Shown: in pieces, positions 5,897-23,190 of the stretch
How the letters are laid out: each line of letters starts with the position of its first letter
Numbering within the stretch: the stretch's first letter is position 1
IMG/VR virus record: IMGVR_UViG_3300028800_000001
Coordinates: 263,296-327,295 of that record
Origin: a virus
DNA: 64,000 bases
Strand: one strand, 5' to 3'
Made by a program: the position numbers and the translations under genes
The notes under the pieces: model-generated
The model's database searches: none
The model's input: the letters and a program-made list of their open reading frames with translations, nothing else
What the model was told of the DNA's origin: nothing

Positions 5897-6814
5897 TTAT
5901 TTTTGTTCGTGGCCTTGCAGGGCAAATGCAGTGCGATCTTCCCCAATGCAGAGCCAGAGATTTTCAAACAAGAGTGCTTCGGCAGGAACACTCATTGTTG
6001 GAAAAGCAGCATCTTTGTCAATATACGCTAAAGTGCAGTGTGGTGTAAAGCCATGTGTGTTGTCAATAGGAACAGGCAGAGACGTTCGAAGCTGTTCACG
6101 CCACTCTGCTATCCCTGGAAGGTCTACAGAGGCGTAAAACGGCAGCGTAGCGCTCTCTGTGGGGGTGTTTGTGAAGCACCCGATCCCTGAGACAATGCCA
6201 TGTACCGGAACCGCGTTTGTCGCATAGTCACCGATTGCTTTTTTGAGCTGTGCGGAAAGGGCATCAGGAACATTCTCAGCGCTTCCTAGTATCATCAAAG
6301 TGACATGCAGCTCTTGTGGCTCACATTTCCCTTCACAGTCCAGTGCTATTTTTTGTGCGGCATCTGGCTCCAGATAAAATGCCACCATGATTGGCAAGGC
6401 CGACACAGGTTTAGGTTGCTCTGGTGTTTCTTCTTTGCGTAGCCACAGCGTCTTTAAAAAAGAAACATGCTCTTCGTTGGCGCGAAAGATTGGCGTCTGC
6501 AAAAAGTCTTTGACAGCTATATCGTGTGCTGCAAGATAGCCAATTAATTGTTCTTCATTCTTGACAGGCAACGTCCATGTCGTCTCTTCAAAGATGCTTT
6601 TCTTCTTTGCAGGTTCTTCATCTGAAAGGGTTGCGCGCTCCTCTTCTGGGAGATCATCAAGATTTTCACAAGGCAGCACACGATTCAAAAAATCTTCACG
6701 TGCTTCATCAGTCAATTGGTGCCGTTGCAAAAACTTGGCAACGCGGCGTGAGAGATCAGGTGACATATTGTCAGGTACACTGCTTTTTGCACTATCGTCT
6801 TTGAGTATTTTCAC
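5897..6814 (-). CDS. 2H phosphoesterase superfamily protein (LigT / cyclic phosphodiesterase-like) with an acidic N-terminal extension (305 aa)
   Basis: Two H-x-T-x motifs at the expected spacing: ELHVTLMILG (around aa 170) and FTPHCTLAYI (around aa 262). Confidence 0.6.
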   Translation of the reverse strand: MKILKDDSAKSSVPDNMSPDLSRRVAKFLQRHQLTDEAREDFLNRVLPCENLDDLPEEERATLSDEEPAKKKSIFEETTWTLPVKNEEQLIGYLAAHDIAVKDFLQTPIFRANEEHVSFLKTLWLRKEETPEQPKPVSALPIMVAFYLEPDAAQKIALDCEGKCEPQELHVTLMILGSAENVPDALSAQLKKAIGDYATNAVPVHGIVSGIGCFTNTPTESATLPFYASVDLPGIAEWREQLRTSLPVPIDNTHGFTPHCTLAYIDKDAAFPTMSVPAEALLFENLWLCIGEDRTAFALQGHEQK

Positions 6815-9800: not shown

Positions 9801-9870
9801 GATAGAGTGTAAGGTCAGGTTTCTCCTGTTCTTCTATCTCTTTACGAAAGAGAGCATAATGATACTTCAT
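6811..9870 (-). CDS. 1019-aa polyvalent protein: N-terminal unique region, His/Pro/Ala/Lys-rich linker, two tandem KYNPxH-leader + GRFKSQFETN modules, C-terminal ~230-aa domain
   Basis: Repeated LYLPEEK(Y/Q)N, EAKYNPAHGHNGQFTTTENAHLLVHRDGT and EEKYNPAHDHVGKFTTTENAHLLVHADGT. One complete core module (WMRVRP, ERFKSQFETNTSAG, RPLYGYLS, TWTGDDSL, YPEAQFHGG, GISYRV). C-terminus has ELYRGVDDG...GVYGNGTY. Low-complexity linker KPAAAHGAPAAKPHAAPHGKPAHG. Confidence 0.7.
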   Translation of the reverse strand: MKYHYALFRKEIEEQEKPDLTLYLPEEKYNRNHSTTTGQFIGADDGAGGVHADVLTTMPAHIAKALSDKGAMTRGADGVYTANINGKTYRIVPTGSTRIAFSQTGASRIADLVGASDTVPVVHSGTVDKEPVVVSEDVKSTPLDDKTATEAMEKMPPDQVTKVGMLEYILGMKQDQSGHYTLNQKTGKINLTQLSSALVKKDIAIQSHSFLMKVIGKSFLRNSIDHGILGKFLTKETKALILSKEYAANDEAALGFAKRFEILHQLAGMKNPTWEDFFKITAHPESQTGGMPPKHPAVPTSVKPLKKPAAAHGAPAAKPHAAPHGKPAHGVIPVPRKKPGHRSHGKMHEPLDLSLYLPEEKQNDEEIDDDTPEHKDQITDAENQAINTIPDTLAPDLVPLVEKFLAGPVAASWTLAERQDFFNRLMGVQSLEDLSARDQELLTGEAKYNPAHGHNGQFTTTENAHLLVHRDGTTEKGPAHPDNQKKDILEQVRPPDAVLKKYDIQGAAFAEKHAQTHNMTAEEYNKAVDDKAVELLKNAEPWMRVRPTILSKILDDERFKSQFETNTSAGIMDHDSRSEAEHDLFGYPDDLAKEQRPLYGYLSDHPDGASLRQTRHGMFDSVDEYGGVAVRFKPEVKQKTTWTGDDSLGMGGYLLPGSMLHPDHTNFSVHGPDPLTYQNVSDVRGYPEAQFHGGLNTSTIAEIVFHNDYELTPPLEAQLKAKGISYRVSGTKSVEQFEEKYNPAHDHVGKFTTTENAHLLVHADGTREKGPKHPDNQEFQKTEAKYSNPEDIPYVKNYMDTGKGPIPGSSSATDADACLQEIYKAQGFDGPPHVVEDNVLAQHIKDGEAELYRGVDDGGDPSDGLGYAASYQSGHYFAGLGVYGNGTYTALTTEGVSDRYSASHVAATYGDDVLHMSVLKNTTAIEKGRLINEWIDYKNDLRTRGKALDDAGKYTESRRIDRLFDLANDPGRYAAMKGYDAIYVDRSHVDSINKRADFLVVLNRTATRVGKTILNGDTL

Positions 9871-12187: not shown

Positions 12188-13006
12188 TTAAAGCTTTACC
12201 GTAAATGGAATGCCTGCGCTGTTCAGTGCCTTTTTTATAGGGGCTGTTGGTGCTTTCCCATGAAAGGTAACACTTTTGATATCGCTTGTTGAGACTCCAC
12301 CATGCACCTGTGCTTCCATATATTCATTTGCCAGATCACGTGGTCGCAAGGGATCAATACCGTTATAGAGTGGATAAATGCGACTATCAGGATGCGTCAC
12401 TGGTTGTGGAATGACGCTTTCGTAGTGTCCACCAGAGGTCATTGCCAGTGAATCACCATAGGTCATAGTAGCACGATCTCGTGTTTCTGGCTTTAGTTCA
12501 ACAGCTACGTTCCCATATTGAGAAACATCTGCATCAGTATTGTCTCCATGAGTATCTTTTGAGAGATATCCATAAATGGGACGGTTCTCCACCCCTGCTT
12601 TTGCTTCATCAAATCCAAAGGCACCAGATTCTAGTTTATCTCTTGAATCTTTGGCAACGCTTCCGCCACTCTTGTTTGTCTCGAATTGACTTTTGAAGCG
12701 ACCGCCATCCAATATTTTTTGGAGTGCTGACGGTTTTACTCGTACAAAGAGTCCAGTATCTTTGACTGCATCTTGCGCTTGCTTATCAAGCGTTGCTTTG
12801 TAGGCATCAGGTGAGAGACCATGACGCTCCCCAAAGATTTCGTAACGCAGATGGGTGTTGTCAGCAAACTCAGAGGCCCAGTGCTCTGTAGGATGTACTC
12901 CCAGGCTTTCTAGTGTCTTGCCGGAACCACCCTCAGAAATAAATTCACCATTTGCATCGCTATGCGCATGATTGTATTTCCTTTGGACTGCGTAGCGAAA
13001 CCGCAT
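12188..13006 (-). CDS. KYN-leader module-family protein (start adjusted to MRFRYAVQRKYNHAHSD), function unknown
   Basis: The ORF-track start at 13168 overlaps the upstream gene. The internal Met at 13006 abuts the stop of 13008..13220. Core motifs FVRVKP, GRFKSQFETNKSGG, RPIYGYLS, YGNVAVELK, MTYGDSL, YMEAQVHGG, GIPFTV. Confidence 0.55.
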   Translation of the reverse strand: MRFRYAVQRKYNHAHSDANGEFISEGGSGKTLESLGVHPTEHWASEFADNTHLRYEIFGERHGLSPDAYKATLDKQAQDAVKDTGLFVRVKPSALQKILDGGRFKSQFETNKSGGSVAKDSRDKLESGAFGFDEAKAGVENRPIYGYLSKDTHGDNTDADVSQYGNVAVELKPETRDRATMTYGDSLAMTSGGHYESVIPQPVTHPDSRIYPLYNGIDPLRPRDLANEYMEAQVHGGVSTSDIKSVTFHGKAPTAPIKKALNSAGIPFTVKL

Positions 13007-13007
13007 A

Positions 13008-13220
13008 TTACTCTCCAACCTTCTTTGCCGTCTTGAGCCACTCATTGACTTTTTCTTGTACACCATCATAGGGCTCCCAGGCAGTTCCACGCGTGAGCAT
13101 CGTGGCAATGGATTGTGGTGGATACAAGAGATGTTTCTCTTGATCATAAATCTGGCCCATTTTTTCATCTTCAGTCAGGATGAAGCGTACTCCATCATCA
13201 GAGACAGCAAATATTTTCAT
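13008..13220 (-). CDS. small partner-family protein (70 aa)
   Basis: MKIFAVSDDGVRFILTEDEKMGQIYDQEKHLLYPPQSIATMLTRGTAWEPYDGVQEKVNEWLKTAKK. Confidence 0.5.
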   Translation of the reverse strand: MKIFAVSDDGVRFILTEDEKMGQIYDQEKHLLYPPQSIATMLTRGTAWEPYDGVQEKVNEWLKTAKKVGE

Positions 13221-13222
13221 GG

Positions 13223-14170
13223 CTATGATGCTCCTGCTACGCTATACGGAATATTTTCTCGTTGTAATAATTTAGTCAGCGCCGCGCTTGGTGCTTTACT
13301 ATGAAAGACAACGTGTGCAATGTGACTTTTTGAGACACCGCCATGCATTTGTGTTTCGGTGTACACATCTTTGATGAGTGAGGTATTTCCTTCTGGACTG
13401 TTATAATTGCTTGCTGCGGTCCCTGTTGGCTTGAGTACTGGATTAGGGAGCATTCGTGGTGCATCCTCACTTCCTCCTTCGTCAAGCGAATCGCCAAGTG
13501 TAAACGTACTTTTTGCCCTCACTTCAGGTTTGAAGCGGATTGCCACATCACCGTAAGCTGAGGCAAAGTTTTGTTCGCCATTTGCACCATCACTTAAATA
13601 CCCGTAAATTGGTCGATCTTCTGACTTGGTCTTTTGATCATAGCCAAACATCTGCTCTTCTTGTTCAGCTCGACTCTCAAGATAGTTGGTCAGTTTGATC
13701 TTATTGGCTCCAATAGCCGCGCCGGTCTTATTGGTTTCGAAGGCACTCTTAAAACGACCATCAGTAAGAATGCCTTGCAGTCCTTTGCTTGATGTTCGTG
13801 TCCATAACTCTCCAGGCGTTACCAGGGCAACAATGTGTGCATCTTCGCGTGCTTTGAGTGCATCAGCCGTGATAGGTTTTCCTAAATCCGTCCATGAGTC
13901 AGCAAAGTTCTTGAGTCGCTGATTGTACGTAGCTTCAAAATTCTTTGTCCAGGCGGCACTCGGATGCACATTTTTCAGCACCGGATCAAGTTGATTGTCA
14001 GGATGCTTTGGCCCCAGCGTTCGCGTTCCATCACGTGCGACAGAGATATGAGCTTCGCCAGCCGTTGAGAACTGTCCCAAATGATTGTGATGTGGGTTAT
14101 ATTTTTGTGCCCAGGCATGTGCCAACATCCGCATCCGTTTCATACGATCATAGAGAAAAATGTCTTCCAT
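13223..14170 (-). CDS. KYNPxH-leader module-family protein (315 aa)
   Basis: QKYNPHHNHLGQFSTAGEAHISVARDGTRTLGPKHPDNQ, then GRFKSAFETNKTGA, RPIYGYLS, YGDVAIRFK, FTLGDSL, YTETQMHGG, HVVF, NIPYSV. Confidence 0.65.
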   Translation of the reverse strand: MEDIFLYDRMKRMRMLAHAWAQKYNPHHNHLGQFSTAGEAHISVARDGTRTLGPKHPDNQLDPVLKNVHPSAAWTKNFEATYNQRLKNFADSWTDLGKPITADALKAREDAHIVALVTPGELWTRTSSKGLQGILTDGRFKSAFETNKTGAAIGANKIKLTNYLESRAEQEEQMFGYDQKTKSEDRPIYGYLSDGANGEQNFASAYGDVAIRFKPEVRAKSTFTLGDSLDEGGSEDAPRMLPNPVLKPTGTAASNYNSPEGNTSLIKDVYTETQMHGGVSKSHIAHVVFHSKAPSAALTKLLQRENIPYSVAGAS

Positions 14171-14566: not shown

Positions 14567-15010
14567 CTATACTTTGTTGAGGGCTGTTGTGACTGCAATA
14601 GAAACGCCAGCCGCCGCGCCAATAATAAGAAACGTTTGACCATAGGCTTTGAGGATTCCAAGGCTACTCACACGTGCTTGCGCAATGAGCACTCCAAGTG
14701 CACAGGTGATGAGCGCACATAAGAGCAACGCAAGTGGTTTGGGCGCAAAAGCAAAAGGTAACGAAGGGAGCAGTATGCCAATACAAGAAGCAACACCGAT
14801 CACCAGGGCATACTTGACGGTGTTCACATTCGTCACATCAGAGAGATATGCCCCGCCTGTCATCGAAATACCAGAGGCCAGGGCCAATCCAACGGCTGAG
14901 AGTACTAATGCATGTGTATCACCGATGATGTATCCGGCTGCAATCACGCCAAGAATGCAGGTCATCCCATCAAAACTACCAAAGATGGCCTTACTGACGA
15001 TTTCCTTCAT
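14567..15010 (-). CDS. VIT1/CCC1-family-like membrane protein (147 aa), host-like cargo
   Basis: GSFDGMTCILGVIAAG motif, like the VIT family G..DG..S.L..VAG, plus multiple TM helices. Confidence 0.45.
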   Translation of the reverse strand: MKEIVSKAIFGSFDGMTCILGVIAAGYIIGDTHALVLSAVGLALASGISMTGGAYLSDVTNVNTVKYALVIGVASCIGILLPSLPFAFAPKPLALLLCALITCALGVLIAQARVSSLGILKAYGQTFLIIGAAAGVSIAVTTALNKV

Positions 15011-15386
15011 AATGCTGCTCCTTTAAGAGTTCTAGGATTTGGAGTTGTTGATGATTGATCTTCAGTAAAAGTGCATTTGTCTCATACATCTTTTCAACCT
15101 CTGCGGCTTCAATGGTGTCACGGGCACGATCTTTTCCAGCCTGTCTATTTTGACTCATGAGAATGAGCGGCGAGCTAAACGCTGCTTCTGCTGACATAAA
15201 GAGATTGCACAGAGTAAAGGGGTAACTGTCCCAATGATAGAACCAACCAACACTGTTGAGTAAAAACCAGAGAAAGAGCAACGCTGCCTGAATCAAGATA
15301 AAGTTCCAATTACCTAACGCTTTGACCGCACCATCAGCCAGCCGATCACCCGCGTCATGCGGAAGATGTATATTCATACGCTTCAC
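14991..15386 (-). CDS. DUF1003-like membrane protein (131 aa), host-like cargo
   Basis: YPFTLCNLFMSAEAAFSSPLILMSQNRQ resembles the DUF1003 signature YPFxLLNL...MSQNRQ. Confidence 0.45.
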   Translation of the reverse strand: MKRMNIHLPHDAGDRLADGAVKALGNWNFILIQAALLFLWFLLNSVGWFYHWDSYPFTLCNLFMSAEAAFSSPLILMSQNRQAGKDRARDTIEAAEVEKMYETNALLLKINHQQLQILELLKEQHYEGNRQ

Positions 15387-15760
15387 GCATCTGCTCCAAA
15401 TTCTGAGAGTGCTAACTTTGCTTCGTGTTCCTCCACCATGCGTTCAAGTTCTGCGGTCTCAATGCCATGTTCACGTAACATCTCAACCGCATACGTGACC
15501 AGAAAGAAGGCACTATCTAACAGCTTTTTGAGTTGCTCAAGATCATTGTCCATCAAGCGTTCCTCTCTTGACATGAATCCGAACTTTTGTGCATGTTCTG
15601 TTCCATCTTCTCCACGCAACCAGGAAAGAAGAAGTCCAGAAAAATCCTTGACTTCTCCCAGCCCGTAGGGTGGATCAGTGACACACAAATCGATAGAGTT
15701 TGTCTGAAGGTGACGTAAGACTTCTAAGCAATCGCCATGAATGACCGTATCAAGCATCAT
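15383..15760 (-). pseudogene. truncated N6A/N4C DNA methyltransferase: catalytic DPPY N-terminal fragment only, 125 aa, no SAM-binding FxGxG region
   Basis: IHGDCLEVLRHL...SIDLCVTDPPYGL is the classic beta-class amino-MTase N-terminus. The ORF ends after 125 aa and is followed by host-like membrane genes. Confidence 0.5.
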
Positions 15761-16626
15761 TTTGTCCTTCTGGTCTTTTTGGTGGGATCAAACCTTTCTC
15801 CGGTTAACTGGCGTTGCATGCGTTCTTCTTCGCGTTCTAAGCGAAAGCGCTGAATACGTTCTATCTCATCACGTGGTGGCAAACATTTCCACATCTGCTG
15901 CATACTGTAGTACACAATAGAATAGCGAAACGAATCCTGTTCCAACTGTGTAATGGGCGTCACACCATGCAAAATGTTTTGGCCGTCAAACATGAGCAGC
16001 GAATTATTACGCAGTTCAAAGCCCAGGCCGTATTCAGGCACCGCAAGATAGCCACCAAGCACGTTGCGTTTAAGCACAATCATGTTTGACCACACATCAC
16101 GAAAGTTGCCTGCATCAAAGTGATAAGGGAGAGGATTATTTTTGTTCACGATGCCAGAGGTGAAGACGGATTCGTCAATCTTCCAATTTTCTAGCACTTT
16201 TTCGGTCATCTCCATGTGTTGTTGATAGAGCAGCGGCGCAAATTCTTGGTAGTAGTGCGCAACTTTGGCCGCATAACTCACAATGATGTCATGCTCATCA
16301 GGATGTTCTACATAACAACTCGTGGCAGTGCAGTAATCACGACGCAGCGTGTTGCGTGGCAAAAAGCCAACGGTGCGTGATTGAGCCATCATGCCACCTG
16401 TGCGTATCTCCAGCTTGTAGTCAATCGTTTGCAGTGCTTTGATCAGCGCGCTGTTATCTTCTTGTAAGAGGAGATAGACAATCTTTGGCTCAGCATTCCC
16501 TGGCTCATAGATCACTGTTGGTTCGCTGATCAGCGTGTCATAGTCTTCGTCTTGCGCATGACGCAATTTGTACTGCGAAAGATCAAGTTGCTTTTTTGTT
16601 GCAATCCTAGTGTAAAGATCTGCCAT
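15757..16626 (-). CDS. 2OG-Fe(II) dioxygenase superfamily protein, copy 1 (HxD...H...RxS; TET/JBP- or AlkB-like nucleic-acid oxygenase candidate)
   Basis: NKNNPLPYHFDAGNF (HxD), about 50 aa later LHGVTPI (second His), then 14 aa later RYSIVYYS (Arg-x-Ser). Paralogue of 18293..19141. Start adjusted to MADLYTRIA to avoid overlap. Confidence 0.55.
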   Translation of the reverse strand: MADLYTRIATKKQLDLSQYKLRHAQDEDYDTLISEPTVIYEPGNAEPKIVYLLLQEDNSALIKALQTIDYKLEIRTGGMMAQSRTVGFLPRNTLRRDYCTATSCYVEHPDEHDIIVSYAAKVAHYYQEFAPLLYQQHMEMTEKVLENWKIDESVFTSGIVNKNNPLPYHFDAGNFRDVWSNMIVLKRNVLGGYLAVPEYGLGFELRNNSLLMFDGQNILHGVTPITQLEQDSFRYSIVYYSMQQMWKCLPPRDEIERIQRFRLEREEERMQRQLTGERFDPTKKTRRTK

Positions 16627-17440
16627 ACGCACCTTCCCTGTACGGGTTTTCCATCCCCAAATCAATGCCCTGCTCTTCTAAGTAGCGCGCCAAAAAGAAT
16701 GCGAGCACATCTGGATTTGCTTTGATCTCTTCACGGGCGCGTACTTCGCGCAGGCCACTCACCATCCAGGCAAATTCGGAAGGGGAACAAATGAGCACAA
16801 TTTGCCGAATAAGCCCATTTTCAAATTGCTCACGATTTTTGCTTGGAACACCTCGATAGACCGGTGGTGGAATATCTTCAACGACCCGTGGCAAATAGGG
16901 GGCCAGTGGTGCTTCTTCACCATCATCCTCGTCTTCTTGCTCTTCTGAAATCACAGAGAGATAGGAAGGTGTCACAGCAGGACGTACCATTTCAGGCAGC
17001 GCTTCAACAGTTTTTGGAATACTTGCGAGCAAGGTTTGCAACTCTTGTTCTGAAGAGCCCAGTGCATTCAGATCAAAACCGGCTTCATTTTGTTCACGAA
17101 GTAATTGCAAAAACATCGTTTGGTCTACGTTTTGCTCATTATGAAGTCGGTTATCGGCCACTAGATAGGCTTCCACTTCACGCGGTGACCAGTTCTTCGG
17201 CAAAATGTCGGCACGTAACTCATCCCACTGGAGATAGAGTGCCGCCTCGACCACACCATGACCGGCAACCAGCAAATAGCGCTCATCGTCTTGCTCCTGG
17301 CACACAATAGAGCGTACCTGTCCGAAGCGCTTGAGACTGGCTGCAAGGCGCACAATATCCGCATTGGTATGGATTTTATAGTTTTTAGGATGTGCTCGCA
17401 CTGCGGCAAGCGGAACAATCTTATTCGTTTTGAAGTGCAT
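16607..17440 (-). CDS. ParB-like N-terminal (ParB/Srx nuclease-fold) domain protein, copy 1 (277 aa)
   Basis: AAVRAHPKNYKIHTNADIVRLAASLKRFGQVRSIVCQEQDDERYLLVAGHGVVEAAL has the ParB N-domain pattern (xxYxLIAGHxRxxAA). Paralogues at 17710..18306 and 19141..19995. AT-rich promoter upstream. Confidence 0.6.
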   Translation of the reverse strand: MHFKTNKIVPLAAVRAHPKNYKIHTNADIVRLAASLKRFGQVRSIVCQEQDDERYLLVAGHGVVEAALYLQWDELRADILPKNWSPREVEAYLVADNRLHNEQNVDQTMFLQLLREQNEAGFDLNALGSSEQELQTLLASIPKTVEALPEMVRPAVTPSYLSVISEEQEDEDDGEEAPLAPYLPRVVEDIPPPVYRGVPSKNREQFENGLIRQIVLICSPSEFAWMVSGLREVRAREEIKANPDVLAFFLARYLEEQGIDLGMENPYREGAYGRSLH

Positions 17441-17462
17441 CTTCTCTTCCTCGGTGCGCAGT

Positions 17463-17522
17463 GAATTAATTATTTTTTCACGCTCTTCTCTTTTTTATTT
17501 TTTAAAAATAATTATTTATTTC
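17463..17522 (-). promoter_or_regulatory. AT-rich bipartite promoter/leader for ParB-like copy 1 (TAAATAATTATTTTT ... AAAAATAATTAATTCA-RBS GAGGAAG)
   Basis: Same paired AATTAATT elements as the four other copies. Confidence 0.4.
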
Positions 17523-17713
17523 TTTTCGCATTTACACTGTTGGAAGAAGGGGAAGCGCAACTCAGACTGCGAAACAAAGCTATGAAATACCAGTGCCCCG
17601 CCACAGCGTGTACAGATCAGGGCACACCAACCATGTGCAACATAGAAGAGCCGATCCCCTTGATGATAAATTCTGACTTCGCTATGCTTTTCGGTCAGTT
17701 CTCGCATACTCAT
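17516..17713 (-). CDS. small Cys-rich / zinc-ribbon-like protein (65 aa)
   Basis: ICTRCGG...QQCKCEKK. Confidence 0.3.
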   Translation of the reverse strand: MSMRELTEKHSEVRIYHQGDRLFYVAHGWCALICTRCGGALVFHSFVSQSELRFPFFQQCKCEKK

Positions 17714-18306
17714 CCTAGCCTCGTGATATCCACCAATGATAAGAGGACACGAAAACGCTCTGTGTCATCGGGCGCAACAATATGGCGCATGAGCCGTTCA
17801 TAGCGTTCTTTTATTTCTGGTGTAACACGCAAACGAATATACACTTCTTCTTTGGTTTCAAAAAAGATTTCCTGCTGTTCTAGCTTTGGCATACGGCTAT
17901 TTTGTAACAGCTTTTGTAGCTCACCATCATCGTAGCCTACAGAGAAGAGGTCAAACCCTTGCTGCTCTTGCAAGAGGTCAAGGAGCGCTACTTCATCATC
18001 TTCTGCCAGTTGGCTCAGGCGATTATCTGCTACCATGATTGCATTGATTTCAGTCGGTGCAAGATCTGGTGGCAAAATATCGATGTGTACCTCCTGTGCC
18101 CCTTCAGCACGCATTGCCTCCACCATTCCGTGTCCAGCTACAATAAGGTAGGTATTGGGCGCGCCTTGCTGCACAACAATACTACGGAATTGTCCAAAAC
18201 GCCGGTAACTGGCTTGTAAGTGTTTCATCTGTTTGGCTGGATGATGGCGATAATTGCCAGGGTGCGGATGTAGTTGCGTGAGGGCAACCCGTTTATTGGT
18301 GATCAT
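17710..18306 (-). CDS. ParB-like N-terminal domain protein, copy 2 (start adjusted to MITNKRVALTQL)
   Basis: LHPHPGNYRHHPAKQMKHLQASYRRFGQFRSIVVQQGAPNTYLIVAGHGMVEAMRA. The ORF-track start at 18468 would overlap the dioxygenase gene by 175 nt. Confidence 0.55.
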   Translation of the reverse strand: MITNKRVALTQLHPHPGNYRHHPAKQMKHLQASYRRFGQFRSIVVQQGAPNTYLIVAGHGMVEAMRAEGAQEVHIDILPPDLAPTEINAIMVADNRLSQLAEDDEVALLDLLQEQQGFDLFSVGYDDGELQKLLQNSRMPKLEQQEIFFETKEEVYIRLRVTPEIKERYERLMRHIVAPDDTERFRVLLSLVDITRLG

Positions 18307-19141
18307 GTTGCACCTTCTCAATGGTACTTTGTAATCGTTTTTCCTCACGCTCGGTACGCTTCTGGCGAATGCGTTGCATTTCTTGCCCAAGAGGCAAACA
18401 TTTCCACATACTTTGCAGTGAATAGTACACAATAGAGTAGCGATAGCCATCAGGGCGCGTTTGTGCAATAGGGGTTACCCCATGCAACAGGTTTTGTCCA
18501 TCGAACATGACCAGTGAATTATTTTTAACAGCAATGCCAAAGTTATATTCAGGAACCGACAAAAGACCACCACTGGTTCCTGCGCGAAAGACCAGCATAT
18601 TTGACCAGACGTGTTTGAAGTTTCCTGCATCAAAGTGATACGCCAGTGGGTTGTTTTTATTAATAATGCCAGAAGTAAAGACAGAGCGCTCAAGTGTCCA
18701 GTCTGGCAACACTTTTTCCACCTGCTGTTCGTGGTAACTATAGAGCTCTGGATTGTAGCGCTCGTAATAGGTTGCAACACGCTTTGCGTAGGACGTAATC
18801 AGGGCATGCGCCTGCGCACTATCGCGAGCCAGAGAAGAAACGGTACAAAAATCATCACGAATGGTGATGCGTGGACGAAAACCAAAGATACGACTTCGCG
18901 TCTTCATTCCACTGGTGCGCTCTTGCTCACGATACTCAATGCGCTTCAGGCAGTCAGTGATTGCACGACAATCATCATCGAGCTCTAGGTAGACAATAGA
19001 GACGCGTCCACTTTCTGCGTCGCGCACCACTGTAGACGTTTCAATGCGTTCTGCAAAGTCGGCTTCTGTGGCACTACGGAAGCGATAGGATTGCAAATCA
19101 ATGACACCGCGTGTGCGTGTCATCACCTGTGGCTCTTGCAT
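18293..19141 (-). CDS. 2OG-Fe(II) dioxygenase superfamily protein, copy 2 (282 aa)
   Basis: INKNNPLAYHFDAGNFKHVWSNM...LLHGVTPIAQTRPDGYRYSIVYYS shows the same HxD/H/RxS layout as copy 1. Confidence 0.55.
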   Translation of the reverse strand: MQEPQVMTRTRGVIDLQSYRFRSATEADFAERIETSTVVRDAESGRVSIVYLELDDDCRAITDCLKRIEYREQERTSGMKTRSRIFGFRPRITIRDDFCTVSSLARDSAQAHALITSYAKRVATYYERYNPELYSYHEQQVEKVLPDWTLERSVFTSGIINKNNPLAYHFDAGNFKHVWSNMLVFRAGTSGGLLSVPEYNFGIAVKNNSLVMFDGQNLLHGVTPIAQTRPDGYRYSIVYYSLQSMWKCLPLGQEMQRIRQKRTEREEKRLQSTIEKVQHDHQ

Positions 19142-19995
19142 TACGCCTCCACTGGCATTGGCTCAAGGGCATGTTCTTTGGCATAGAGCCGTAAGAACTC
19201 AGTAAAGACATCCGTATTGGTATCCAGTTGCCATTTTGCCCTGGCCTGTGAAAGGACATTCATCACCCAAATATATTCCTCTTGTGAATAAATCAGCACA
19301 ATCTGGCGAATAGTTGTGGTGTTATAGGTATGTAAGAAGTCTTGTGGAGTGGTGCCAATAATTTGTTCGGGGGCCGCAAAGACGGTGGTTCCTTTTTCGT
19401 CAGAAGTGGCAACGGTTCCTGGTGCATACACAGGGCTATAAGGTGCTGGCGTAAAAAGTGGATTATGCGGGGCTGGAGGACCATCATCCTCTTCCTCAAT
19501 ATATTCTTGATTGACACGCATGGACTCACGAATAGCGCTTTGCGCTTCTTCTTGTCCACCAAAGGCCATTTCCTCTAGCATACGTGCCATATCTTGCTCA
19601 GAAGTTCCTAGCGACAAAAGGTCAGCACCAATGGTAGCTTGCTCACGGAGTAGCGCGAGTAACTTCTCTTGATCATCGTGGCCTGCGTCGCTGAGCTTAT
19701 TGTCAGCAACCAGATAGCCAGAGACCATGCTGTCGTCCCAGGACGCAGGCAAGAGATCCGCACGTAGCTCTTGATAACCTAAACGGCGTGCCGCTTCGAA
19801 GACGCCATGACCAGCGACCAGCAAATAGGTACCATCAGGCTGTTCTTGACACACGATACTTCTGCCTTGTCCAAAGCGGGTGAGGCTAGAAGCAATATTG
19901 CGTAGTTGTGTTTCGGTATGGACACGATAATTCTTGGGATTTGGACGCACCGCAGAGAGGGCAATGCGATGGTTTTCTTTCAGCATTTCTATCAT
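19141..19995 (-). CDS. ParB-like N-terminal domain protein, copy 3 (284 aa)
   Basis: SAVRPNPKNYRVHTETQLRNIASSLTRFGQGRSIVCQEQPDGTYLLVAGHGVFEAARRL. The C-terminal RQIVLIYSQEEYIWVMNVLSQARA block is shared with copy 1. Confidence 0.6.
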   Translation of the reverse strand: MIEMLKENHRIALSAVRPNPKNYRVHTETQLRNIASSLTRFGQGRSIVCQEQPDGTYLLVAGHGVFEAARRLGYQELRADLLPASWDDSMVSGYLVADNKLSDAGHDDQEKLLALLREQATIGADLLSLGTSEQDMARMLEEMAFGGQEEAQSAIRESMRVNQEYIEEEDDGPPAPHNPLFTPAPYSPVYAPGTVATSDEKGTTVFAAPEQIIGTTPQDFLHTYNTTTIRQIVLIYSQEEYIWVMNVLSQARAKWQLDTNTDVFTEFLRLYAKEHALEPMPVEA

Positions 19996-20096
19996 AAAAA
20001 CTCCTCAAAATGACAAAGCCAGAGATAAGTGGATGTTTTTCTCTACTGAAAATTTGAGGAATTTTGTATAGGAGGATTGCTGCTAGTATAGCATAC

Positions 20097-20669
20097 CTAA
20101 GAAATAAACAAAAGAGAAAGAAGTGTTTCTACATTGCGCCGCAACTGTGTTGGAGTATCATTACGCAGGTGATAGCTTGGAATGGTGTGCTGATAGGCGA
20201 GAAAGACGTTGTTGATTTGGGTCTGGATACCTTTCACCCAACTCTCACTCTGGTTCCCTCTGGCCTTTCTCCGCAGCAATGCGGCCTCGCTACACAGTTC
20301 CACGAGCGTCACTTTCCCAGGAAAATTGGTTGAGAATAATTCAATACAAGAGCGCGTAAAGATGCGGCTTCCTTCAGCCAGCAACGTGTACTCTTCGAAA
20401 AAAGGATGCTGTAGCTTCTCGCACAGCGCTGGAATATCGCACAGCAGCGCGGTCGAGAGACGATCTGTCCCTGCAAAGACTTCGTTCTCTGCGTAGAGCC
20501 CAAGAAGAAGTACACGCGTCGAGGGATAGAGCTGCCCACGAACTGTACCACAACGAAACTGTGTACTGGCACAGGGGCCAAGGGCCGGAAGCAAACTGCG
20601 CACTGTGGTGGTTTTGCCAACTCCAGGCGCGCCGCCAAGAAAAACAAACGCTTTCACAAAAAACTCCAA
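20097..20669 (-). CDS. P-loop kinase-like protein (190 aa)
   Basis: Walker A FVFLGGAPGVGKTTT. Small-kinase size. No further family assignment possible. Confidence 0.5.
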   Translation of the reverse strand: MEFFVKAFVFLGGAPGVGKTTTVRSLLPALGPCASTQFRCGTVRGQLYPSTRVLLLGLYAENEVFAGTDRLSTALLCDIPALCEKLQHPFFEEYTLLAEGSRIFTRSCIELFSTNFPGKVTLVELCSEAALLRRKARGNQSESWVKGIQTQINNVFLAYQHTIPSYHLRNDTPTQLRRNVETLLSLLFIS

Positions 20670-20981
20670 GAAGAAGATAGATGTTTGGTGTTTTTTGTGA
20701 AGATGAATATTTTTTTCTCTAACCCCTCTATAGGACCAGTCTTATACAAGAGTAATAACAATCTAAGAAGATATATTACTTCTCTCAGTCTTACTCATAT
20801 ACCAGTCTTTAGAAGAGTAAGTAAGTATAGTAATAACTATATATCTTCTATAGTATATAGTCTTTCTTTTTTTTCGGCGCTCTATAAGCTATATTCTCCA
20901 AAAATCAGGACTTTATAAGAAAATCGAGACCAATTTTCACCAGTTTTGGGCGCATTTTCAAAACTCTCAGGAAAGTCGCAT
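20670..20981. repeat. AT-rich noncoding island with short direct repeats (CCAGTCTTA x3, AGAGTAA x2, TATAGTATATAG)
   Basis: Composition differs sharply from the flanking coding DNA, and no ORF lies here. Repeats: ccagtcttatacaagagtaa, cagtcttactcatatac, cagtctttagaagagtaagtaag. Confidence 0.4.
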
Positions 20982-21413
20982 CTAGTCCTCCCAACGTAAT
21001 TTCCAAACGTTCATACGACTTTTCTTTCCTTGTACCGTGGCCGAAAGGACAAAGCCCTGCGCACGATAGAATTTGTTGGCGTCAATGGTTTCAATCGCTT
21101 TGAGACTCACACAATGTTTTCCTGCCTGATGCGCGGCAAGAACGGTACGTGCTACCAGCATGTTTCCAATACCTTTGCGACGAGTATTTTGATCGACACA
21201 AAGATAGGAAAGCGTGGTTTGTTCGTCACGACGATGGTGAAAGAGCACAAAGCCCACCAGTTTTTCTTCTTCCCAGGCCGTAATAAGACTTTCATGCTTT
21301 ATTGCTTCAAAGTATTGTGGGTAGAGAATAAAGCCAAGCTCTTTTTTACTGGCAGAAGCAAGACGCGCAAGCAAAGGAACGTCTTCGTCACACGCGGGGC
21401 GTAGCGCAATCAT
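20982..21413 (-). CDS. GNAT family N-acetyltransferase (143 aa)
   Basis: Acetyl-CoA binding motif RRKGIGNMLVARTVLAAHQAG and ...NKFYRAQGF. Confidence 0.6.
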   Translation of the reverse strand: MIALRPACDEDVPLLARLASASKKELGFILYPQYFEAIKHESLITAWEEEKLVGFVLFHHRRDEQTTLSYLCVDQNTRRKGIGNMLVARTVLAAHQAGKHCVSLKAIETIDANKFYRAQGFVLSATVQGKKSRMNVWKLRWED

Positions 21414-22288
21414 ATGAGACTCCTCAATTGACTACAGAGCAGCGGTGCCATGCGTACTCCAGAGCCACCCATCGCAGGAGCATAATAGATGTCATCTTGT
21501 TTGTAGAGTTGTTTTTTGAGTGCCATTGCTGGCCTCCATCCTTCTATCAGGGGTTGCTCTTCTTCCGCAACCAGGACAAGATCACCGGTAAGCCGCGCAA
21601 AAAGTTCTTTCCAAAGCGCATACTTTGGCTCCATGCTGTAGCCTTTCAGTTTCTTTTGCGAGAGGGTAGAACTGCCTGCATAGTGATAGGGGGTATTCGG
21701 CACAAGATTGGCATAGGCAAACTGAAAACGATTCTCTCGTAAATAAAAGGTTGGCCGCGCTGGTGAGGCAATAAGCACTTCTTCAGAGACCAATAACTTT
21801 ACTTTGCGTGACCAGCCCCATACATAGTGATCGGCAATGCGAAAGCCATGTGAAATGATCTGTTGTGCGCCAGTAGGCACATCGTCAGTGCGCCGTTCGG
21901 CAAAAAAGAGCCGACTTTGCTCAACAAAGCGCTGAACATTGAAGTGATAACTTGGATACGCACCAAGATAGAGAGGTCCGATATGGGTGAGAATATCATA
22001 TTTGGCTCCATGTGGCGGATGTTTACTGGAAAACCAGAATGCGCCATTTTCACTCAGGCGTCCCAGGTGTGCCGTCCAGGGTGCGCCTCGCTGGTGCCAC
22101 TTTGACCAGCCATGGTAGGCTCGCATCTCTTCTGGCTCTCCGCTTGGATAGATGAGCCCTGTACTGGCTTTCCAGGCAACATGTTCCGCATCGATATCGT
22201 TCCAGGTAAATGCTTTTTTTGCGGCGAAGAGTTCCCAGGCAAAAAAGGCACCAAGAACGCCCATGCCATGTAAATGATAGTGTGTCAT
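21410..22288 (-). CDS. FAD-dependent oxidoreductase-like protein (292 aa)
   Basis: N-terminal dinucleotide-binding HLHGMGVLGAFFA (GxGxxG) and C-terminal YYAPAMGGSGVRMAPLL (G-G-x-G), typical of the DAO/glycine oxidase family. Confidence 0.45.
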   Translation of the reverse strand: MTHYHLHGMGVLGAFFAWELFAAKKAFTWNDIDAEHVAWKASTGLIYPSGEPEEMRAYHGWSKWHQRGAPWTAHLGRLSENGAFWFSSKHPPHGAKYDILTHIGPLYLGAYPSYHFNVQRFVEQSRLFFAERRTDDVPTGAQQIISHGFRIADHYVWGWSRKVKLLVSEEVLIASPARPTFYLRENRFQFAYANLVPNTPYHYAGSSTLSQKKLKGYSMEPKYALWKELFARLTGDLVLVAEEEQPLIEGWRPAMALKKQLYKQDDIYYAPAMGGSGVRMAPLLCSQLRSLI

Positions 22289-23190
22289 CGAAGAAGTAAG
22301 ACTCCTGTCTTTTTATAGAGTGTTTTGCGCACGCGGTCTGGCCCATTCCAGCCATGCACTTCTCCCAGGTAGGCATCAGGGAACAACTCAGCGCGTAAAC
22401 TAAAAAGTTCTTTAGCTTCTAGTGGAGAAAGCGTGTAAAGTTGCGCAAGCATTTGATCAATATCATGACCGATATAATAGCGTCCTTCATAGACGGCGTG
22501 AAAGTCACAGAGCATTGTTTCCAATTGTGCAATATGCAGCACGATATCATGTTTGTGTACACGGCGTAACAAATCTTCTCCTTGCTCGTCAAGTATGCGT
22601 ACTGCCTGTGGGGTGTTACCAACAACGGTGGGATAAAAGAGAGCAAGTCCTTGTCGTGGGCCACTAGAAAACTCATTGCCCATATTGGGTGCAACGAGCG
22701 GATAGTGATGCACACTCATGAGTATTTCACAGGTCTTATATGCAGCCCAGCGGCCATTGCCCCAAAAGCGTTGCAGGCGATCTGTGAGCGTTTGCCAGTT
22801 TGCATAGGGATCGCTACGGGACAATCCTTCTTGAAAAAAGGCCGTGAGACTTTCATAGGGGCGCGTGATTTCCTGCACAGAGAGCAGGTGCTTGCTGATA
22901 GTGCCGCCACGAAAGCCACGCCGTTCGGTCGCACAGGAGAGCCGCGCAAACTGCGCAGGCAGCGCACTGCGCACAGGAGTGTGAGGGTAGACGCGTGTTA
23001 CAGAACCAAGATGATAATAGCTGACGTAGAGTAGCGTATGCCAGAGCGCTTCTTCAGGAGTGAAGTGGCTGTAGAGTCGTTCAAGAAGTGGGTACACCGG
23101 ATCAACATCTTTGGTAAGCAACTGGGCATGACAAAAGGAAAGGAAATCTTGAAAAAGTTTATCTTCTGAAAAGAACATTGGATATTTCAC
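22285..23190 (-). CDS. hypothetical protein (301 aa) in the modification-gene cluster
   Basis: ORF track. Translationally coupled to the downstream FAD oxidoreductase gene (4-nt overlap). Confidence 0.45.
   Translation of the reverse strand: MKYPMFFSEDKLFQDFLSFCHAQLLTKDVDPVYPLLERLYSHFTPEEALWHTLLYVSYYHLGSVTRVYPHTPVRSALPAQFARLSCATERRGFRGGTISKHLLSVQEITRPYESLTAFFQEGLSRSDPYANWQTLTDRLQRFWGNGRWAAYKTCEILMSVHHYPLVAPNMGNEFSSGPRQGLALFYPTVVGNTPQAVRILDEQGEDLLRRVHKHDIVLHIAQLETMLCDFHAVYEGRYYIGHDIDQMLAQLYTLSPLEAKELFSLRAELFPDAYLGEVHGWNGPDRVRKTLYKKTGVLLLR

What the first reader, a model, noticed from the sequence alone, without database searches (positions are those of the whole stretch)
15383..23190. Duplicated ParB-like + 2OG-Fe(II) dioxygenase cassette with methyltransferase remnant, kinase, GNAT and FAD oxidoreductase: candidate DNA base-hypermodification system
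Three paralogous ParB/Srx-fold N-domain proteins alternate with two paralogous ~290-aa proteins. These carry an HxD...(about 50 aa)...H...(about 14 aa)...RxS arrangement, the iron/2-oxoglutarate site spacing used by nucleic-acid-modifying dioxygenases (TET/JBP, AlkB). The run is co-directional with a DPPY amino-MTase fragment, a P-loop kinase, a GNAT, an FAD-type oxidoreductase and an unknown 301-aa protein. In phages, in-DNA thymine/cytosine hypermodification pathways combine a base oxidase or hydroxymethylase with a DNA kinase and group-transfer or tailoring enzymes. The gene content here fits that logic, but the duplicated ParB-dioxygenase pairing is not one I can match to a described system. 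The placement is inference; I cannot verify whether ParB-dioxygenase linkage has been described.
Basis: partly seen in the sequence, partly recalled or inferred. Interest (0 to 1): 0.8.

Follow-up and report, generated by a model that had tools for sequence, protein, structure and literature searches.

The report
Phage thymine hypermodification cluster, two ParB–TET modules
This is a phage gene cluster predicted to convert thymine in DNA into a bulky modified base, starting with two TET/JBP-type thymine dioxygenases that each have their own ParB-like activator; this kind of system was described in 2021–2026, so it is a new member with a rare doubled front end.

Summary

- **Dioxygenases:** both ~285-aa proteins pass Pfam Tet_JBP. 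They keep HxD…H…R, and the TET_B model matches NgTET1, CMD1, CcTet and human TET2.
- **Interpretation:** O'Toole et al. (bioRxiv 2025, PNAS 2026) showed ParB-dependent phage thymine dioxygenases linked to P-loop kinases and AADTs.
- **Downstream genes:** AADT–FAD–GNAT–kinase has the gene order of Pseudomonas phage PaMx11 gp46–49, which makes 5-acetylaminomethyl-dU (Lee et al. 2021). Cultured Gordonia and Mycobacterium phages carry ParB–TET–AADT–kinase–oxidoreductase cassettes.
- **What is unusual:**
  - Two ParB–TET pairs of different lineages sit in one cluster. This was seen in 2 of 82 surveyed loci, one of which is this same phage.
  - There is an extra short ParB.
  - A 1,025-bp deletion has destroyed the adjacent N6/N4 methyltransferase.

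Verdict: new member of a known kind, modest interest.

The parts
22285..23190 (-). Amino acid:DNA transferase (AADT, formerly aGPT-Pplase clade 2). Predicted to act as a glycine:5-phosphomethyl-dU transferase. The start is probably the ATG at 23178 (297 aa).
   Evidence: Pfam PF18724 ADDT scores 51.3 bits against a cut-off of 26.2. It is 38-39% identical to the annotated aGPT-Pplase2 proteins of Gordonia and Mycobacterium phages. Ten of 12 active-site residues of PaMx11 gp46/PUGT are identical, including E220-T221-x-x-C224 and the glycine-binding D26, W144 and K148.
21410..22288 (-). Small (292 aa) FAD-dependent amine oxidase of the DAO/glycine-oxidase fold. Predicted to act as an N-alpha-glycinylthymidine oxidase/lyase, producing 5-aminomethyl-dU.
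20982..21413 (-). GNAT N-acetyltransferase. Predicted to acetylate 5-aminomethyl-dU.
   Evidence: Pfam Acetyltransf_1/7/10 at E 4e-12 to 8e-12, above the cut-offs. It occupies the same position as PaMx11 gp48, to which it is 23% identical with weak support. A 61%-identical orthologue sits in the same position in L098.
20097..20657 (-). P-loop kinase. Predicted to be a 5-hydroxymethyl-dU DNA kinase (5-HMUDK).
   Evidence: It has the Walker A motif GGAPGVGKTT. Pfam Ploopntkinase3 scores 22.4 bits, below the cut-off of 27. It is 30% identical to Gordonia phage Wooper gp4, annotated '5-hmU DNA kinase'. Its 61%-identical orthologue in L098 carries a weak Ploopntkinase3 hit.
19141..19995 (-). ParB_C: ParB-like activator, the presumed cognate partner of TET_B.
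   Evidence: It hits PHROG ParB families (E 2e-24). Its N-domain aligns to Spo0J 1vz0 residues 25-96. Its stop codon overlaps the TET_B start at 19141. Its 51%-identical orthologue sits directly upstream of the TET_B orthologue in L098.
18293..19141 (-). TET_B: TET/JBP-family Fe(II)/2OG 5-methylpyrimidine dioxygenase (5mYOX). Predicted to oxidise thymine to 5hmU.
   Evidence: Pfam PF12851 scores 44.8 bits against a cut-off of 34.9. H169, D171, H220 and R234 are invariant. The AF2 model has pLDDT 93.9, and its top PDB matches are NgTET1, CMD1, CcTet and TET2. A C-terminal helix follows the conserved C248.
17710..18306 (-). ParB_B: short (198 aa) ParB N-domain protein lacking the C-terminal domain shared by ParB_A and ParB_C. 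Its role is unknown; it may be an accessory or regulatory protein.
   Evidence: PHROG ParB hit at E 3e-27. It aligns to ParB_A and ParB_C only over about 140-170 residues. A 51%-identical orthologue follows the TET_B orthologue in L098, with an unrelated C-terminus.
17516..17713 (-). 65-aa Cys-rich ORF of unknown function inside the cluster.
   Evidence: The ORF is called in all near-identical contigs. It has no family hit and was not found in other loci.
16607..17440 (-). ParB_A: ParB-like activator, the presumed cognate partner of TET_A.
   Evidence: PHROG ParB hit at E 2e-22. Its 3' end overlaps the TET_A start by 20 nt. Its 36%-identical orthologue, which carries PF02195 ParB_N, sits directly upstream of the TET_A orthologue in L099.
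15757..16626 (-). TET_A: second TET/JBP-family dioxygenase, from a different lineage than TET_B.
   Evidence: Pfam PF12851 scores 59.6 bits. It is 51% identical to TET_B with all catalytic residues kept. Its nearest relatives are P0039 (66%) and P0092 (62%), and it is not sister to TET_B in a neighbour-joining tree.
15383..15760 (-). Remnant of an N6/N4 amino-methyltransferase. The N-terminal ~62 aa, with the DPPY motif, are fused in frame to a downstream 56-aa ORF by a 1,025-bp deletion.
   Evidence: PHROG DNA methyltransferase families match aa 1-35 only. L001 and L003, 99.8% identical to the window, carry an intact 409-aa PF01555 MTase plus a 56-aa ORF. The blastn breakpoint is at window 15572-15575.

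Best explanation
The region is a post-replicative thymidine-hypermodification gene cluster of a phage or phage-like element known only from metagenomes.

**Proposed pathway**
1. Two TET/JBP-family 5-methylpyrimidine dioxygenases, TET_B and TET_A, hydroxylate thymine in double-stranded DNA to 5-hydroxymethyluracil. Each is activated by the ParB-like protein encoded just upstream (ParB_C and ParB_A).
2. The P-loop kinase phosphorylates the hydroxymethyl group, giving 5-PmdU.
3. The AADT uses its Cys/Glu active site to displace the phosphate with an amino acid, most likely glycine, giving N-alpha-glycinylthymidine.
4. The DAO-fold flavoenzyme oxidises the glycyl C-N bond, leaving 5-aminomethyl-dU.
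5. The GNAT acetylates the amine, giving 5-acetylaminomethyl-dU.

Steps 2-5 are the route reconstituted for Pseudomonas phage PaMx11.

**What is shown here and what is inferred**
- Shown here: family membership of the TETs, AADT and GNAT; fold of the TET and of the flavoenzyme; conserved catalytic and glycine-binding residues; gene order; orthologous cassettes elsewhere.
- Inferred: substrate (T rather than 5mC), ParB dependence, glycine as the donor, and the final product.

**The two ParB-TET modules.** They come from different lineages. Their most likely role is to widen or raise the fraction of thymines modified, for example through different sequence contexts. The modification itself most likely protects the DNA from host nucleases.
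For: **Dioxygenases**
- Pfam Tet_JBP is above its cut-off for both proteins.
- The catalytic HxD/H/R residues are invariant.
- The top fold matches are all TET-family DNA dioxygenases.
- Both TETs have a C-terminal extension after the conserved Cys. O'Toole et al. found this feature only in ParB-dependent enzymes.

**ParB pairing**
- A ParB gene lies immediately upstream of each TET, as in Gordonia phage Wooper and Mycobacterium phage Phelemich.
- Of 84 TET genes in 82 loci, 43 have a ParB ORF immediately upstream.
- ParB-dependent phage T-dioxygenases linked to P-loop kinases and AADTs have been demonstrated experimentally (PMC13229309).

**Substrate**
- No Thymidylat_synt or C5-MTase Pfam hit exists anywhere in the 64-kb window.

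**Downstream enzymes**
- The AADT is above its Pfam cut-off. It keeps 10 of 12 PaMx11 gp46 active-site residues, including the Gly-binding D, W and K.
- The flavoenzyme fold is that of glycine oxidase, MnmC and NGTO.
- The order AADT-FAD-GNAT-kinase equals PaMx11 gp46-49.
- The same AADT-FAD-GNAT-kinase-ParB-TET-ParB order occurs in an independent relative, L098, at 51-67% identity.
Against: - Nothing has been tested biochemically for these proteins.
- Only 64 kb is visible, and a contig of 327 kb is on record for these proteins. A dUMP hydroxymethylase or a C5-MTase could lie elsewhere in the genome.
- The kinase is below the Pfam cut-off.
- The flavoenzyme has no sequence-level similarity to PaMx11 gp47 beyond the FAD motif. 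Structurally it is closer to D-amino-acid and glycine oxidases than to gp47.
- The AADT and GNAT are only 22-23% identical to gp46 and gp48, so the donor amino acid and the final product are not secure.
- The three ParBs carry GHG[V/M] where canonical ParB has GERR and where most 5mYOX-linked ParBs keep the final Arg.
- Many ParB/5mYOX pairs tested by O'Toole et al. gave little or no 5hmU in E. coli.
Confidence: 0.8

Rival explanations
1. The architecture is the same, but the chemistry ends elsewhere. The AADT might install an amino acid other than glycine, or the flavoenzyme and GNAT might act differently, so the final base would be a different thymidine hypermodification and not 5-acetylaminomethyl-dU.
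For: The AADT is 22% and the GNAT 23% identical to the PaMx11 enzymes. The flavoenzyme shows no sequence similarity to gp47 and is structurally nearest to D-amino-acid oxidases. Two of 12 gp46 pocket residues differ: K261 is H and E265 is Q. Lee et al. stress combinatorial diversity in these clusters.
Against: The glycine-binding D/W/K and the catalytic E-T-x-x-C are conserved. The gene order is identical to PaMx11 gp46-49. Glycine/sarcosine-oxidase-type folds and MnmC score highly.
Confidence: 0.3
2. The dioxygenases act on 5-methylcytosine, as phage clade A/B TETs do. The kinase and AADT would then elaborate 5hmC rather than 5hmU.
For: The TET/JBP fold cannot by itself distinguish T from 5mC. 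The best structural matches are 5mC enzymes. 5mYOX97 and 5mYOX176 also oxidise 5mC iteratively in vitro. Burke et al. considered P-loop kinases acting on 5hmC. The rest of the genome is unseen.
Against: No C5-MTase is present in the 64-kb window. The adjacent MTase is of the N6/N4 type and is deleted in this genome. The ParB-associated clade with kinase and AADT neighbours was shown to make 5hmU. The AADT pocket matches a thymine-derivative enzyme.
Confidence: 0.05
3. One ParB-TET module is a redundant or decaying duplicate with no separate function, and the short ParB_B is a remnant.
For: Two TETs occur in only 2 of 82 loci. ParB_B lacks the C-terminal domain that O'Toole et al. found necessary. 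The neighbouring MTase is already being lost.
Against: Both TETs are intact with all catalytic residues, and identity is highest in the catalytic core. Each has orthologues at 62-66% identity in other phages and each travels with its own ParB type. The ParB_B type is conserved next to the TET_B type in L098. The same ParB-TET-ParB-ParB-TET layout arose independently in L027.
Confidence: 0.15
4. The ParB-like proteins are partition, packaging or nuclease proteins unrelated to the dioxygenases.
For: PHROG labels call them partition proteins or nucleases. Earlier literature speculated on packaging roles.
Against: There is no ParA and no HTH domain hit. GERR is replaced by GHG[V/M]. Start and stop codons overlap with the TET genes. 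The pairing recurs across loci. Activation of cognate 5mYOX by such ParBs has been shown experimentally.
Confidence: 0.05

Closest known systems
ParB-dependent phage thymine dioxygenases (5mYOX clade C1; e.g. 5mYOX176/ParB176), O'Toole et al., PNAS 2026 (PMC13229309)
   Same: - A TET/JBP-family enzyme of about 280-290 aa with a C-terminal extension.
- A ParB-like gene immediately adjacent.
- Neighbouring P-loop kinase and AADT genes.
- No C5-MTase nearby.
   Different: - Two ParB-TET modules of different lineages plus a third, short ParB sit in one cluster. The paper's main text mentions no duplication, although its tables list contigs with two ParBs.
- ParB box II is GHG[V/M], lacking the Arg kept by most 5mYOX-linked ParBs.
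- Direct sequence comparison with the paper's proteins was not possible, because no sequences are held.
Pseudomonas phage PaMx11 gp46-gp49 pathway to 5-acetylaminomethyl-dU (Lee et al. 2021, PMC8989533; structures in Wen et al. 2024, PMC11472151)
   Same: - The four enzyme types occur in the same order: AADT, FAD oxidase/lyase, acetyltransferase, 5-HMUDK.
- AADT active-site and glycine-binding residues are conserved.
- The flavoenzyme is small (about 290 aa) with the same fold family.
   Different: - PaMx11 makes 5hmdU before replication, with a thymidylate-synthase homologue (gp51). Here TET/ParB modules take that role and no ThyA-like gene is seen.
- Sequence identity is only 22-23% for the AADT and GNAT, and undetectable for the flavoenzyme.
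Cassette at the left end of cultured actinophage genomes (Gordonia phage Wooper gp1-5; Mycobacterium phage Phelemich/Reprobate gp1-5)
   Same: ParB, TET, AADT, kinase and an oxidoreductase are co-directional. The window proteins are 35% (TET), 38-39% (AADT), 27-30% (kinase) and 35% (Wooper gp5, flavoenzyme) identical.
   Different: - These phages have a single ParB-TET pair and no GNAT.
- The gene order differs.
- The Phelemich oxidoreductase is not detectably related to the window flavoenzyme.
Trypanosome JBP1/2 and eukaryotic TETs
   Same: The same Fe(II)/2OG double-stranded beta-helix fold and HxD...H...R site. JBP also makes 5hmU as a precursor for further modification.
   Different: The window proteins are stand-alone small enzymes with 12-15% identity to solved TETs. 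They have a ParB partner instead of fused DNA-binding domains, and the downstream chemistry uses an amino acid rather than glucose.

Membership tests
TET/JBP (5mYOX) dioxygenases | Match to Pfam PF12851 above the gathering score | tested here: met
   59.6 bits (TET_A) and 44.8 bits (TET_B) against a cut-off of 34.9.
TET/JBP (5mYOX) dioxygenases | Fe(II)/2OG ligands: HxD, a distal H, and the 2OG-binding R | tested here: met
   H169, D171, H220 and R234 (TET_B numbering) are invariant in 39 homologues and present in both copies.
TET/JBP (5mYOX) dioxygenases | Double-stranded beta-helix fold closest to TET-family DNA enzymes | tested here: met
   The AF2 model has pLDDT 93.9. Foldseek ranks 1-26 are NgTET1, CMD1, CcTet and TET2 (E 1e-12 to 2e-9), followed by the AlkB family and FTO.
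TET/JBP (5mYOX) dioxygenases | Oxidation of a 5-methylpyrimidine in DNA | not testable with these tools
   This needs expression and nucleoside analysis.
ParB-dependent T-dioxygenase subclass (O'Toole et al.) | Co-located ParB homologue | tested here: met
   ParB_C/TET_B and ParB_A/TET_A have overlapping stop and start codons. The orthologous pairs in L098 and L099 are adjacent too.
ParB-dependent T-dioxygenase subclass (O'Toole et al.) | C-terminal extension beyond the last conserved Cys of the dioxygenase | tested here: met
   34 aa (TET_B) and 41 aa (TET_A) follow the invariant C248. This stretch is predicted as a long helix, residues 251-281.
ParB-dependent T-dioxygenase subclass (O'Toole et al.) | ParB partner with an N-terminal nucleotide-binding domain and a C-terminal dimerisation domain, and no DNA-binding domain | tested here: inconclusive
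   The N-domain aligns to Spo0J. ParB_A and ParB_C share a C-terminal region also found in Wooper ParB. No HTH hit was found. No structure was predicted for the ParBs. ParB_B lacks the C-terminal region.
ParB-dependent T-dioxygenase subclass (O'Toole et al.) | Absence of a neighbouring C5-cytosine methyltransferase | tested here: met
   No PF00145 hit in any scanned ORF of the window. The rest of the genome is unseen.
ParB-dependent T-dioxygenase subclass (O'Toole et al.) | Activity on dsDNA requires the ParB | not testable with these tools
   This needs a co-expression assay.
PaMx11-type 5-AcNmdU pathway | Clade-2 AADT with the essential Cys and Glu | tested here: met
   PF18724 is above its cut-off. 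The E220-T-x-x-C224 motif is invariant in 17 AADTs including gp46. Ten of 12 gp46 pocket residues are conserved.
PaMx11-type 5-AcNmdU pathway | 5-hmdU DNA kinase | tested here: inconclusive
   Walker A is present. Ploopntkinase3 scores 22.4 bits, below the cut-off of 27. Identity to the annotated phage 5-hmU DNA kinases is 27-30%, and there is no detectable similarity to PaMx11 gp49.
PaMx11-type 5-AcNmdU pathway | N-alpha-GlyT FAD-dependent oxidase/lyase (gp47/NGTO) | tested here: inconclusive
PaMx11-type 5-AcNmdU pathway | Acetyltransferase following the flavoenzyme gene | tested here: met
   GNAT Pfam hits. Gene order is as in PaMx11.
PaMx11-type 5-AcNmdU pathway | Pre-replicative 5hmdU supply by a dUMP hydroxymethylase | tested here: not met
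   No thymidylate-synthase-family hit in the window. PaMx11 has gp51. Here the TETs are the presumed 5hmU source.
Chromosome-segregation ParB (CTPase clamp) | GERR arginine patch (box II) | tested here: not met
   In the alignment to Spo0J, GERR is replaced by GHGV. All three paralogues have GHG[V/M].
Chromosome-segregation ParB (CTPase clamp) | Score above the family cut-offs (Pfam ParB_N, TIGR00180), and a ParA partner | tested here: not met
   15-19 bits against 26.3 and about 17 bits against 58. No ParA-like gene is found in the cluster.

The most novel reading that the evidence does not exclude
The two ParB-TET modules are not redundant. Each cognate pair would target a different thymine sequence context or DNA state, and both would feed one shared kinase/AADT/oxidase/GNAT line, so that a fully post-replicative pathway reaches a much higher density of modified T than a single sequence-specific dioxygenase can. 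The conserved short ParB_B would act as an extra regulator of timing or pairing. That would be a modular 'multi-reader, one-tailoring-line' design for DNA hypermodification.
Probability: 0.3. Interest if true: 0.45.

Novelty: new member of a known kind. Interest (0 to 1): 0.3.

Why it matters
The cluster is a clean natural example of a fully post-replicative route from ordinary thymine to a PaMx11-type acetylated aminomethyl-uracil. It joins two recently characterised systems: ParB-activated T-dioxygenases and the AADT/flavin-lyase/acetyltransferase line.

It also supplies two divergent cognate ParB/5mYOX pairs from one genome. These are a ready-made test of cognate specificity and sequence-context partitioning, and a source of enzymes for 5hmU-based DNA labelling. 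It does not open a new category.

Tried and rejected
- **Megablast against phages.** The whole region gave no match, so there is no close cultured relative.
- **PDB sequence searches.** phmmer and hmmsearch with the flavoenzyme and with the TET profile gave nothing significant, so fold searches were needed.
- **Profile comparison with PaMx11 gp47.** hhalign of the flavoenzyme family matched only the 36-residue FAD motif, so orthology with gp47 cannot be claimed from sequence.
- **First locus searches.**
  - The single-protein search in viral contigs found only 2 loci.
  - Plain tblastn with the window ParBs missed most ParBs.
  - I replaced both with an alignment-based scan and iterative HMMs.
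- **Is ParB_B plus the 65-aa ORF a split gene?** I rejected this. The longer L098 orthologue has an unrelated C-terminus and no match to the 65-aa ORF.
- **Candidate catalytic Cys C150-E151 in the AADT.** I rejected it. It does not align with gp46, and the invariant motif is E220...C224.
- **Promoter and terminator scan.** Promoter-like sites were no more frequent than in shuffles. Terminator-like sites were about two sd above the shuffle mean but mark no clear operon boundary. No tRNAs were found.
- **Literature gaps.**
  - The O'Toole supplements hold no sequences, so I could not place the window proteins in their clades.
  - Iyer et al. 2013 is not held.
- **Host assignment.** The genome-contig scan found only 8 loci, all distant, so no host could be assigned.

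Full report
**1. Observation**

The minus strand between 23190 and 15383 carries a tight, co-directional run of ORFs. In order of transcription they are:

| Coordinates | Size | Name used here |
|---|---|---|
| 22285-23190 | 301 aa | AADT |
| 21410-22288 | 292 aa | flavoenzyme |
| 20982-21413 | 143 aa | GNAT |
| 20097-20669 | 190 aa (186 from 20657) | kinase |
| 19141-19995 | 284 aa | ParB_C |
| 18293-19141 | 282 aa | TET_B |
| 17710-18468 | probably 198 aa, from the ATG at 18306 | ParB_B |
| 17516-17713 | 65 aa | 65-aa ORF |
| 16607-17440 | 277 aa | ParB_A |
| 15757-16626 | 289 aa | TET_A |
| 15383-15760 | 125 aa | MTase remnant |

- The two ~285-aa proteins are 51% identical (E 2e-101). The three ParB-like proteins are 38-45% identical.
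- DNA repeats spaced about 2.5 kb apart reflect the same duplication.
- The HxD...H...RxS arrangement is real. It is H169/D171, H220 and R234/S236 in TET_B, and H169, D171, H220 and R234 are invariant across 39 homologues.

**2. What the parts are**

*Dioxygenases.*
- Both pass Pfam Tet_JBP (59.6 and 44.8 bits against a cut-off of 34.9).
- An AF2 model of TET_B (pLDDT 93.9) matches NgTET1, CMD1, CcTet and human TET2 at ranks 1-26. The AlkB family and FTO come after that.

*The "unknown" 301-aa protein.*
- It is Pfam ADDT, an amino acid:DNA transferase formerly called aGPT-Pplase (51.3 bits against 26.2).
- Aligned with PaMx11 gp46, it keeps 10 of the 12 residues that Wen et al. describe in the gp46 (PUGT) active site.
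- The conserved residues include E-T-x-x-C (E220, T221, C224) and the glycine-binding D26, W144 and K148.

*The 292-aa protein.*
- It has no Pfam hit, but it carries an invariant N-terminal GxGxxG motif. Two of its homologues carry PF01266 DAO.
- Sequence-level similarity to gp47 is limited to the FAD motif.

*GNAT and kinase.*
- The GNAT is unambiguous.
- The kinase has a Walker A motif and a sub-threshold Ploopntkinase3 hit. It is 27-30% identical to the phage proteins in the equivalent position, one of which GenBank annotates as a 5-hmU DNA kinase.

*ParB-like proteins.*
- They match PHROG ParB families (E 1e-22 to 1e-27) and the N-domain of Spo0J.
- The canonical GERR box reads GHG[V/M]. 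They are not canonical partition ParBs.

**3. The methyltransferase remnant**

- Five metagenome contigs are 99.8% identical to the window.
- Two of them (L001, L003) carry an intact 409-aa N6_N4 MTase plus a 56-aa ORF where the window has the 125-aa ORF.
- The window lacks 1,025 bp, with a 4-bp overlap at the junction (15572-15575). The deletion fuses the first ~62 MTase residues, including DPPY, in frame to the 56-aa ORF.
- The intact enzyme resembles CcrM-type adenine MTases. It cannot supply 5mC.

**4. Literature**

- *O'Toole et al.* (bioRxiv 2025; PNAS 2026, PMC13229309) define ParB-independent and ParB-dependent phage thymine dioxygenases.
  - The ParB-dependent subclass is "consistently linked" with P-loop kinases, AADTs and GATases.
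  - It needs its cognate ParB on dsDNA, and it has a C-terminal extension after the last conserved Cys.
  - Both window TETs have such an extension, of 34 and 41 aa, predicted to be helical.
- *Lee et al.* (PMC8989533) reconstituted the PaMx11 pathway to 5-acetylaminomethyl-dU: gp46 AADT (glycine), gp47 flavin lyase, gp48 acetyltransferase, gp49 5-HMUDK. They also noted metavirome contigs in which TET_JBP replaces the dUMP hydroxymethylase.
- The window's order, AADT-FAD-GNAT-kinase, is exactly that of gp46-49.
- *Burke et al.* (PMC8256090) had already remarked on the TET-ParB association.

**5. Relatives**

*Cultured phages.* Some cultured phages carry the cassette.
- Gordonia phage Wooper gp1-5 are annotated ParB-like, Tet-like, aGPT-Pplase2, 5-hmU DNA kinase, and a homologue of the window flavoenzyme.
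- Mycobacterium phage Phelemich gp1-5 are equivalent. There the TET is mislabelled "queuine tRNA-ribosyltransferase" and the kinase "terminase small subunit". This explains the odd PHROG labels seen.

*Survey of 82 TET loci* (80 from IMG/VR).
- A ParB-like ORF occurs in 77 of the 82 loci, and lies immediately upstream of 43 of 84 TET genes.
- An AADT occurs in 15 loci, a kinase in 21, a flavoenzyme homologue in 4, and the GNAT only in the copy of this same phage.
- Two TETs occur only in that copy (L007) and in L027.
- L027 has the layout kinase-ParB-TET-ParB-ParB-TET. Its two TETs are each other's closest relatives (61% identical), so it is an independent duplication.

*Cellular genomes.* The TET family is nearly absent from them: 8 loci in 185,579 species genomes.

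**6. Origin of the doubled front end**

- TET_A and TET_B are not sisters in a neighbour-joining tree. Their last common node spans 25 of 124 tips.
- TET_B's nearest relative, P0006 (62%), sits in L098. That contig has the order AADT-FAD-GNAT-kinase-ParB(C-type, 51%)-TET-ParB(B-type, 51%).
- TET_A's nearest relative, P0039 (66%), sits in L099. That contig has the order kinase-AADT-FAD-ParB(A-type, 36%)-TET.
- The window cluster therefore looks like a complete "C/B-type" cassette to which a second "A-type" ParB-TET pair has been added.
- Each ParB type travels with its own TET type. This fits the cognate specificity reported by O'Toole et al..
- Both TETs are intact. Their identity is highest in the catalytic core (65-85%) and lowest in the N-terminal half (25-40%).

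**7. Mechanism proposed**

1. TET_A/ParB_A and TET_B/ParB_C convert T in DNA to 5hmU.
2. The kinase makes 5-PmdU.
3. The AADT replaces the phosphate with glycine.
4. The flavoenzyme oxidises the glycyl C-N bond, giving 5-aminomethyl-dU.
5. The GNAT acetylates it.

Thymine is favoured over 5mC because no C5-MTase or thymidylate-synthase-family gene is detectable in the 64-kb window, and because of the company the TETs keep. The family, fold, residue and synteny statements are shown here. Substrate, ParB dependence, donor amino acid and product are inferred.

Weak points:
- The rest of the genome is unseen; a 327-kb contig is on record.
- The kinase hit is below threshold.
- The flavoenzyme is only fold-level similar to gp47.
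- Identity to the PaMx11 enzymes is low.

**8. Verdict**

The features not described in the papers I could read are modest:
- two ParB-TET modules of different lineages in one cluster;
- a conserved short third ParB;
- the combination of a TET front end with the PaMx11-type FAD+GNAT tailoring pair;
- a population-level deletion of the adjacent MTase.

Interest is about 0.3.

Noticed in passing
window 25984-28560 (+), with nested ORF 26606-27256 (+): The 858-aa ResIII/Helicase_C helicase carries an intein (HINT-family hits at aa 134-427). Inside the intein-coding stretch, a 216-aa ORF in a different reading frame hits the DUF559 endonuclease family above its cut-off (46 bits against 20.6). The helicase frame stays open across the same 650 nt. 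This may be a homing-endonuclease gene nested in an alternate frame.
   Followed up: partly
window 15572-15575; L001 12833-13853: A 1,025-bp deletion removes most of a 409-aa CcrM-like N6/N4 DNA methyltransferase that is intact in 99.8%-identical metagenome contigs. The remnant is fused in frame to the next small ORF.
   Followed up: yes
window 14567-15386 (-): Directly downstream of TET_A and the MTase lie two small membrane-protein genes, both conserved in the sibling contigs. One is a DUF1003 protein (14991-15386). The other is a 147-aa VIT1-family protein (14567-15010), from the Fe2+/Mn2+ transporter family. A link to iron supply for the Fe(II)/2OG enzymes is pure speculation.
   Followed up: no
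window 241-1029, 1162-2103, 6811-9870, 12188-13168, 13223-14170 (all -): At least five ORFs in the window carry a DUF3626 domain. Two of the hits are weak, and one lies inside a 1,019-aa protein. This is a striking paralogue expansion of a family of unknown function.
   Followed up: no
window 20670-20981: A 312-bp AT-rich non-coding gap separates the GNAT and kinase genes. It contains repeated AAGACTGGT-type and TATA-rich motifs, and a 30-nt imperfect inverted repeat at its kinase-proximal end. It may be an internal promoter or regulatory region.
   Followed up: no
PHROG phrog_6059 and phrog_800; L088 (Phelemich gp2, gp5); L089 (PaMx11 gp49): Two PHROG functional labels appear to be inherited mis-annotations. 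'Queuine tRNA-ribosyltransferase' is applied to the TET/JBP family. 'Terminase small subunit' is applied to the P-loop 5-hmU DNA kinase family.
   Followed up: partly
L098 6187-7645: In the closest relative of the TET_B cassette, QueD-like (PTPS) and radical-SAM genes lie just downstream of the thymidine-hypermodification genes. This hints at a second DNA modification, of the 7-deazaguanine type, in the same phage.
   Followed up: no
window 56982-57866 (+): An IS110/IS116-family transposase ORF is present (Transposase_20 hit). Recognisable phage structural proteins are almost absent from the 64-kb window, so the genome is very divergent and its phage nature rests mainly on the IMG/VR classification and the gene content.
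   Followed up: no
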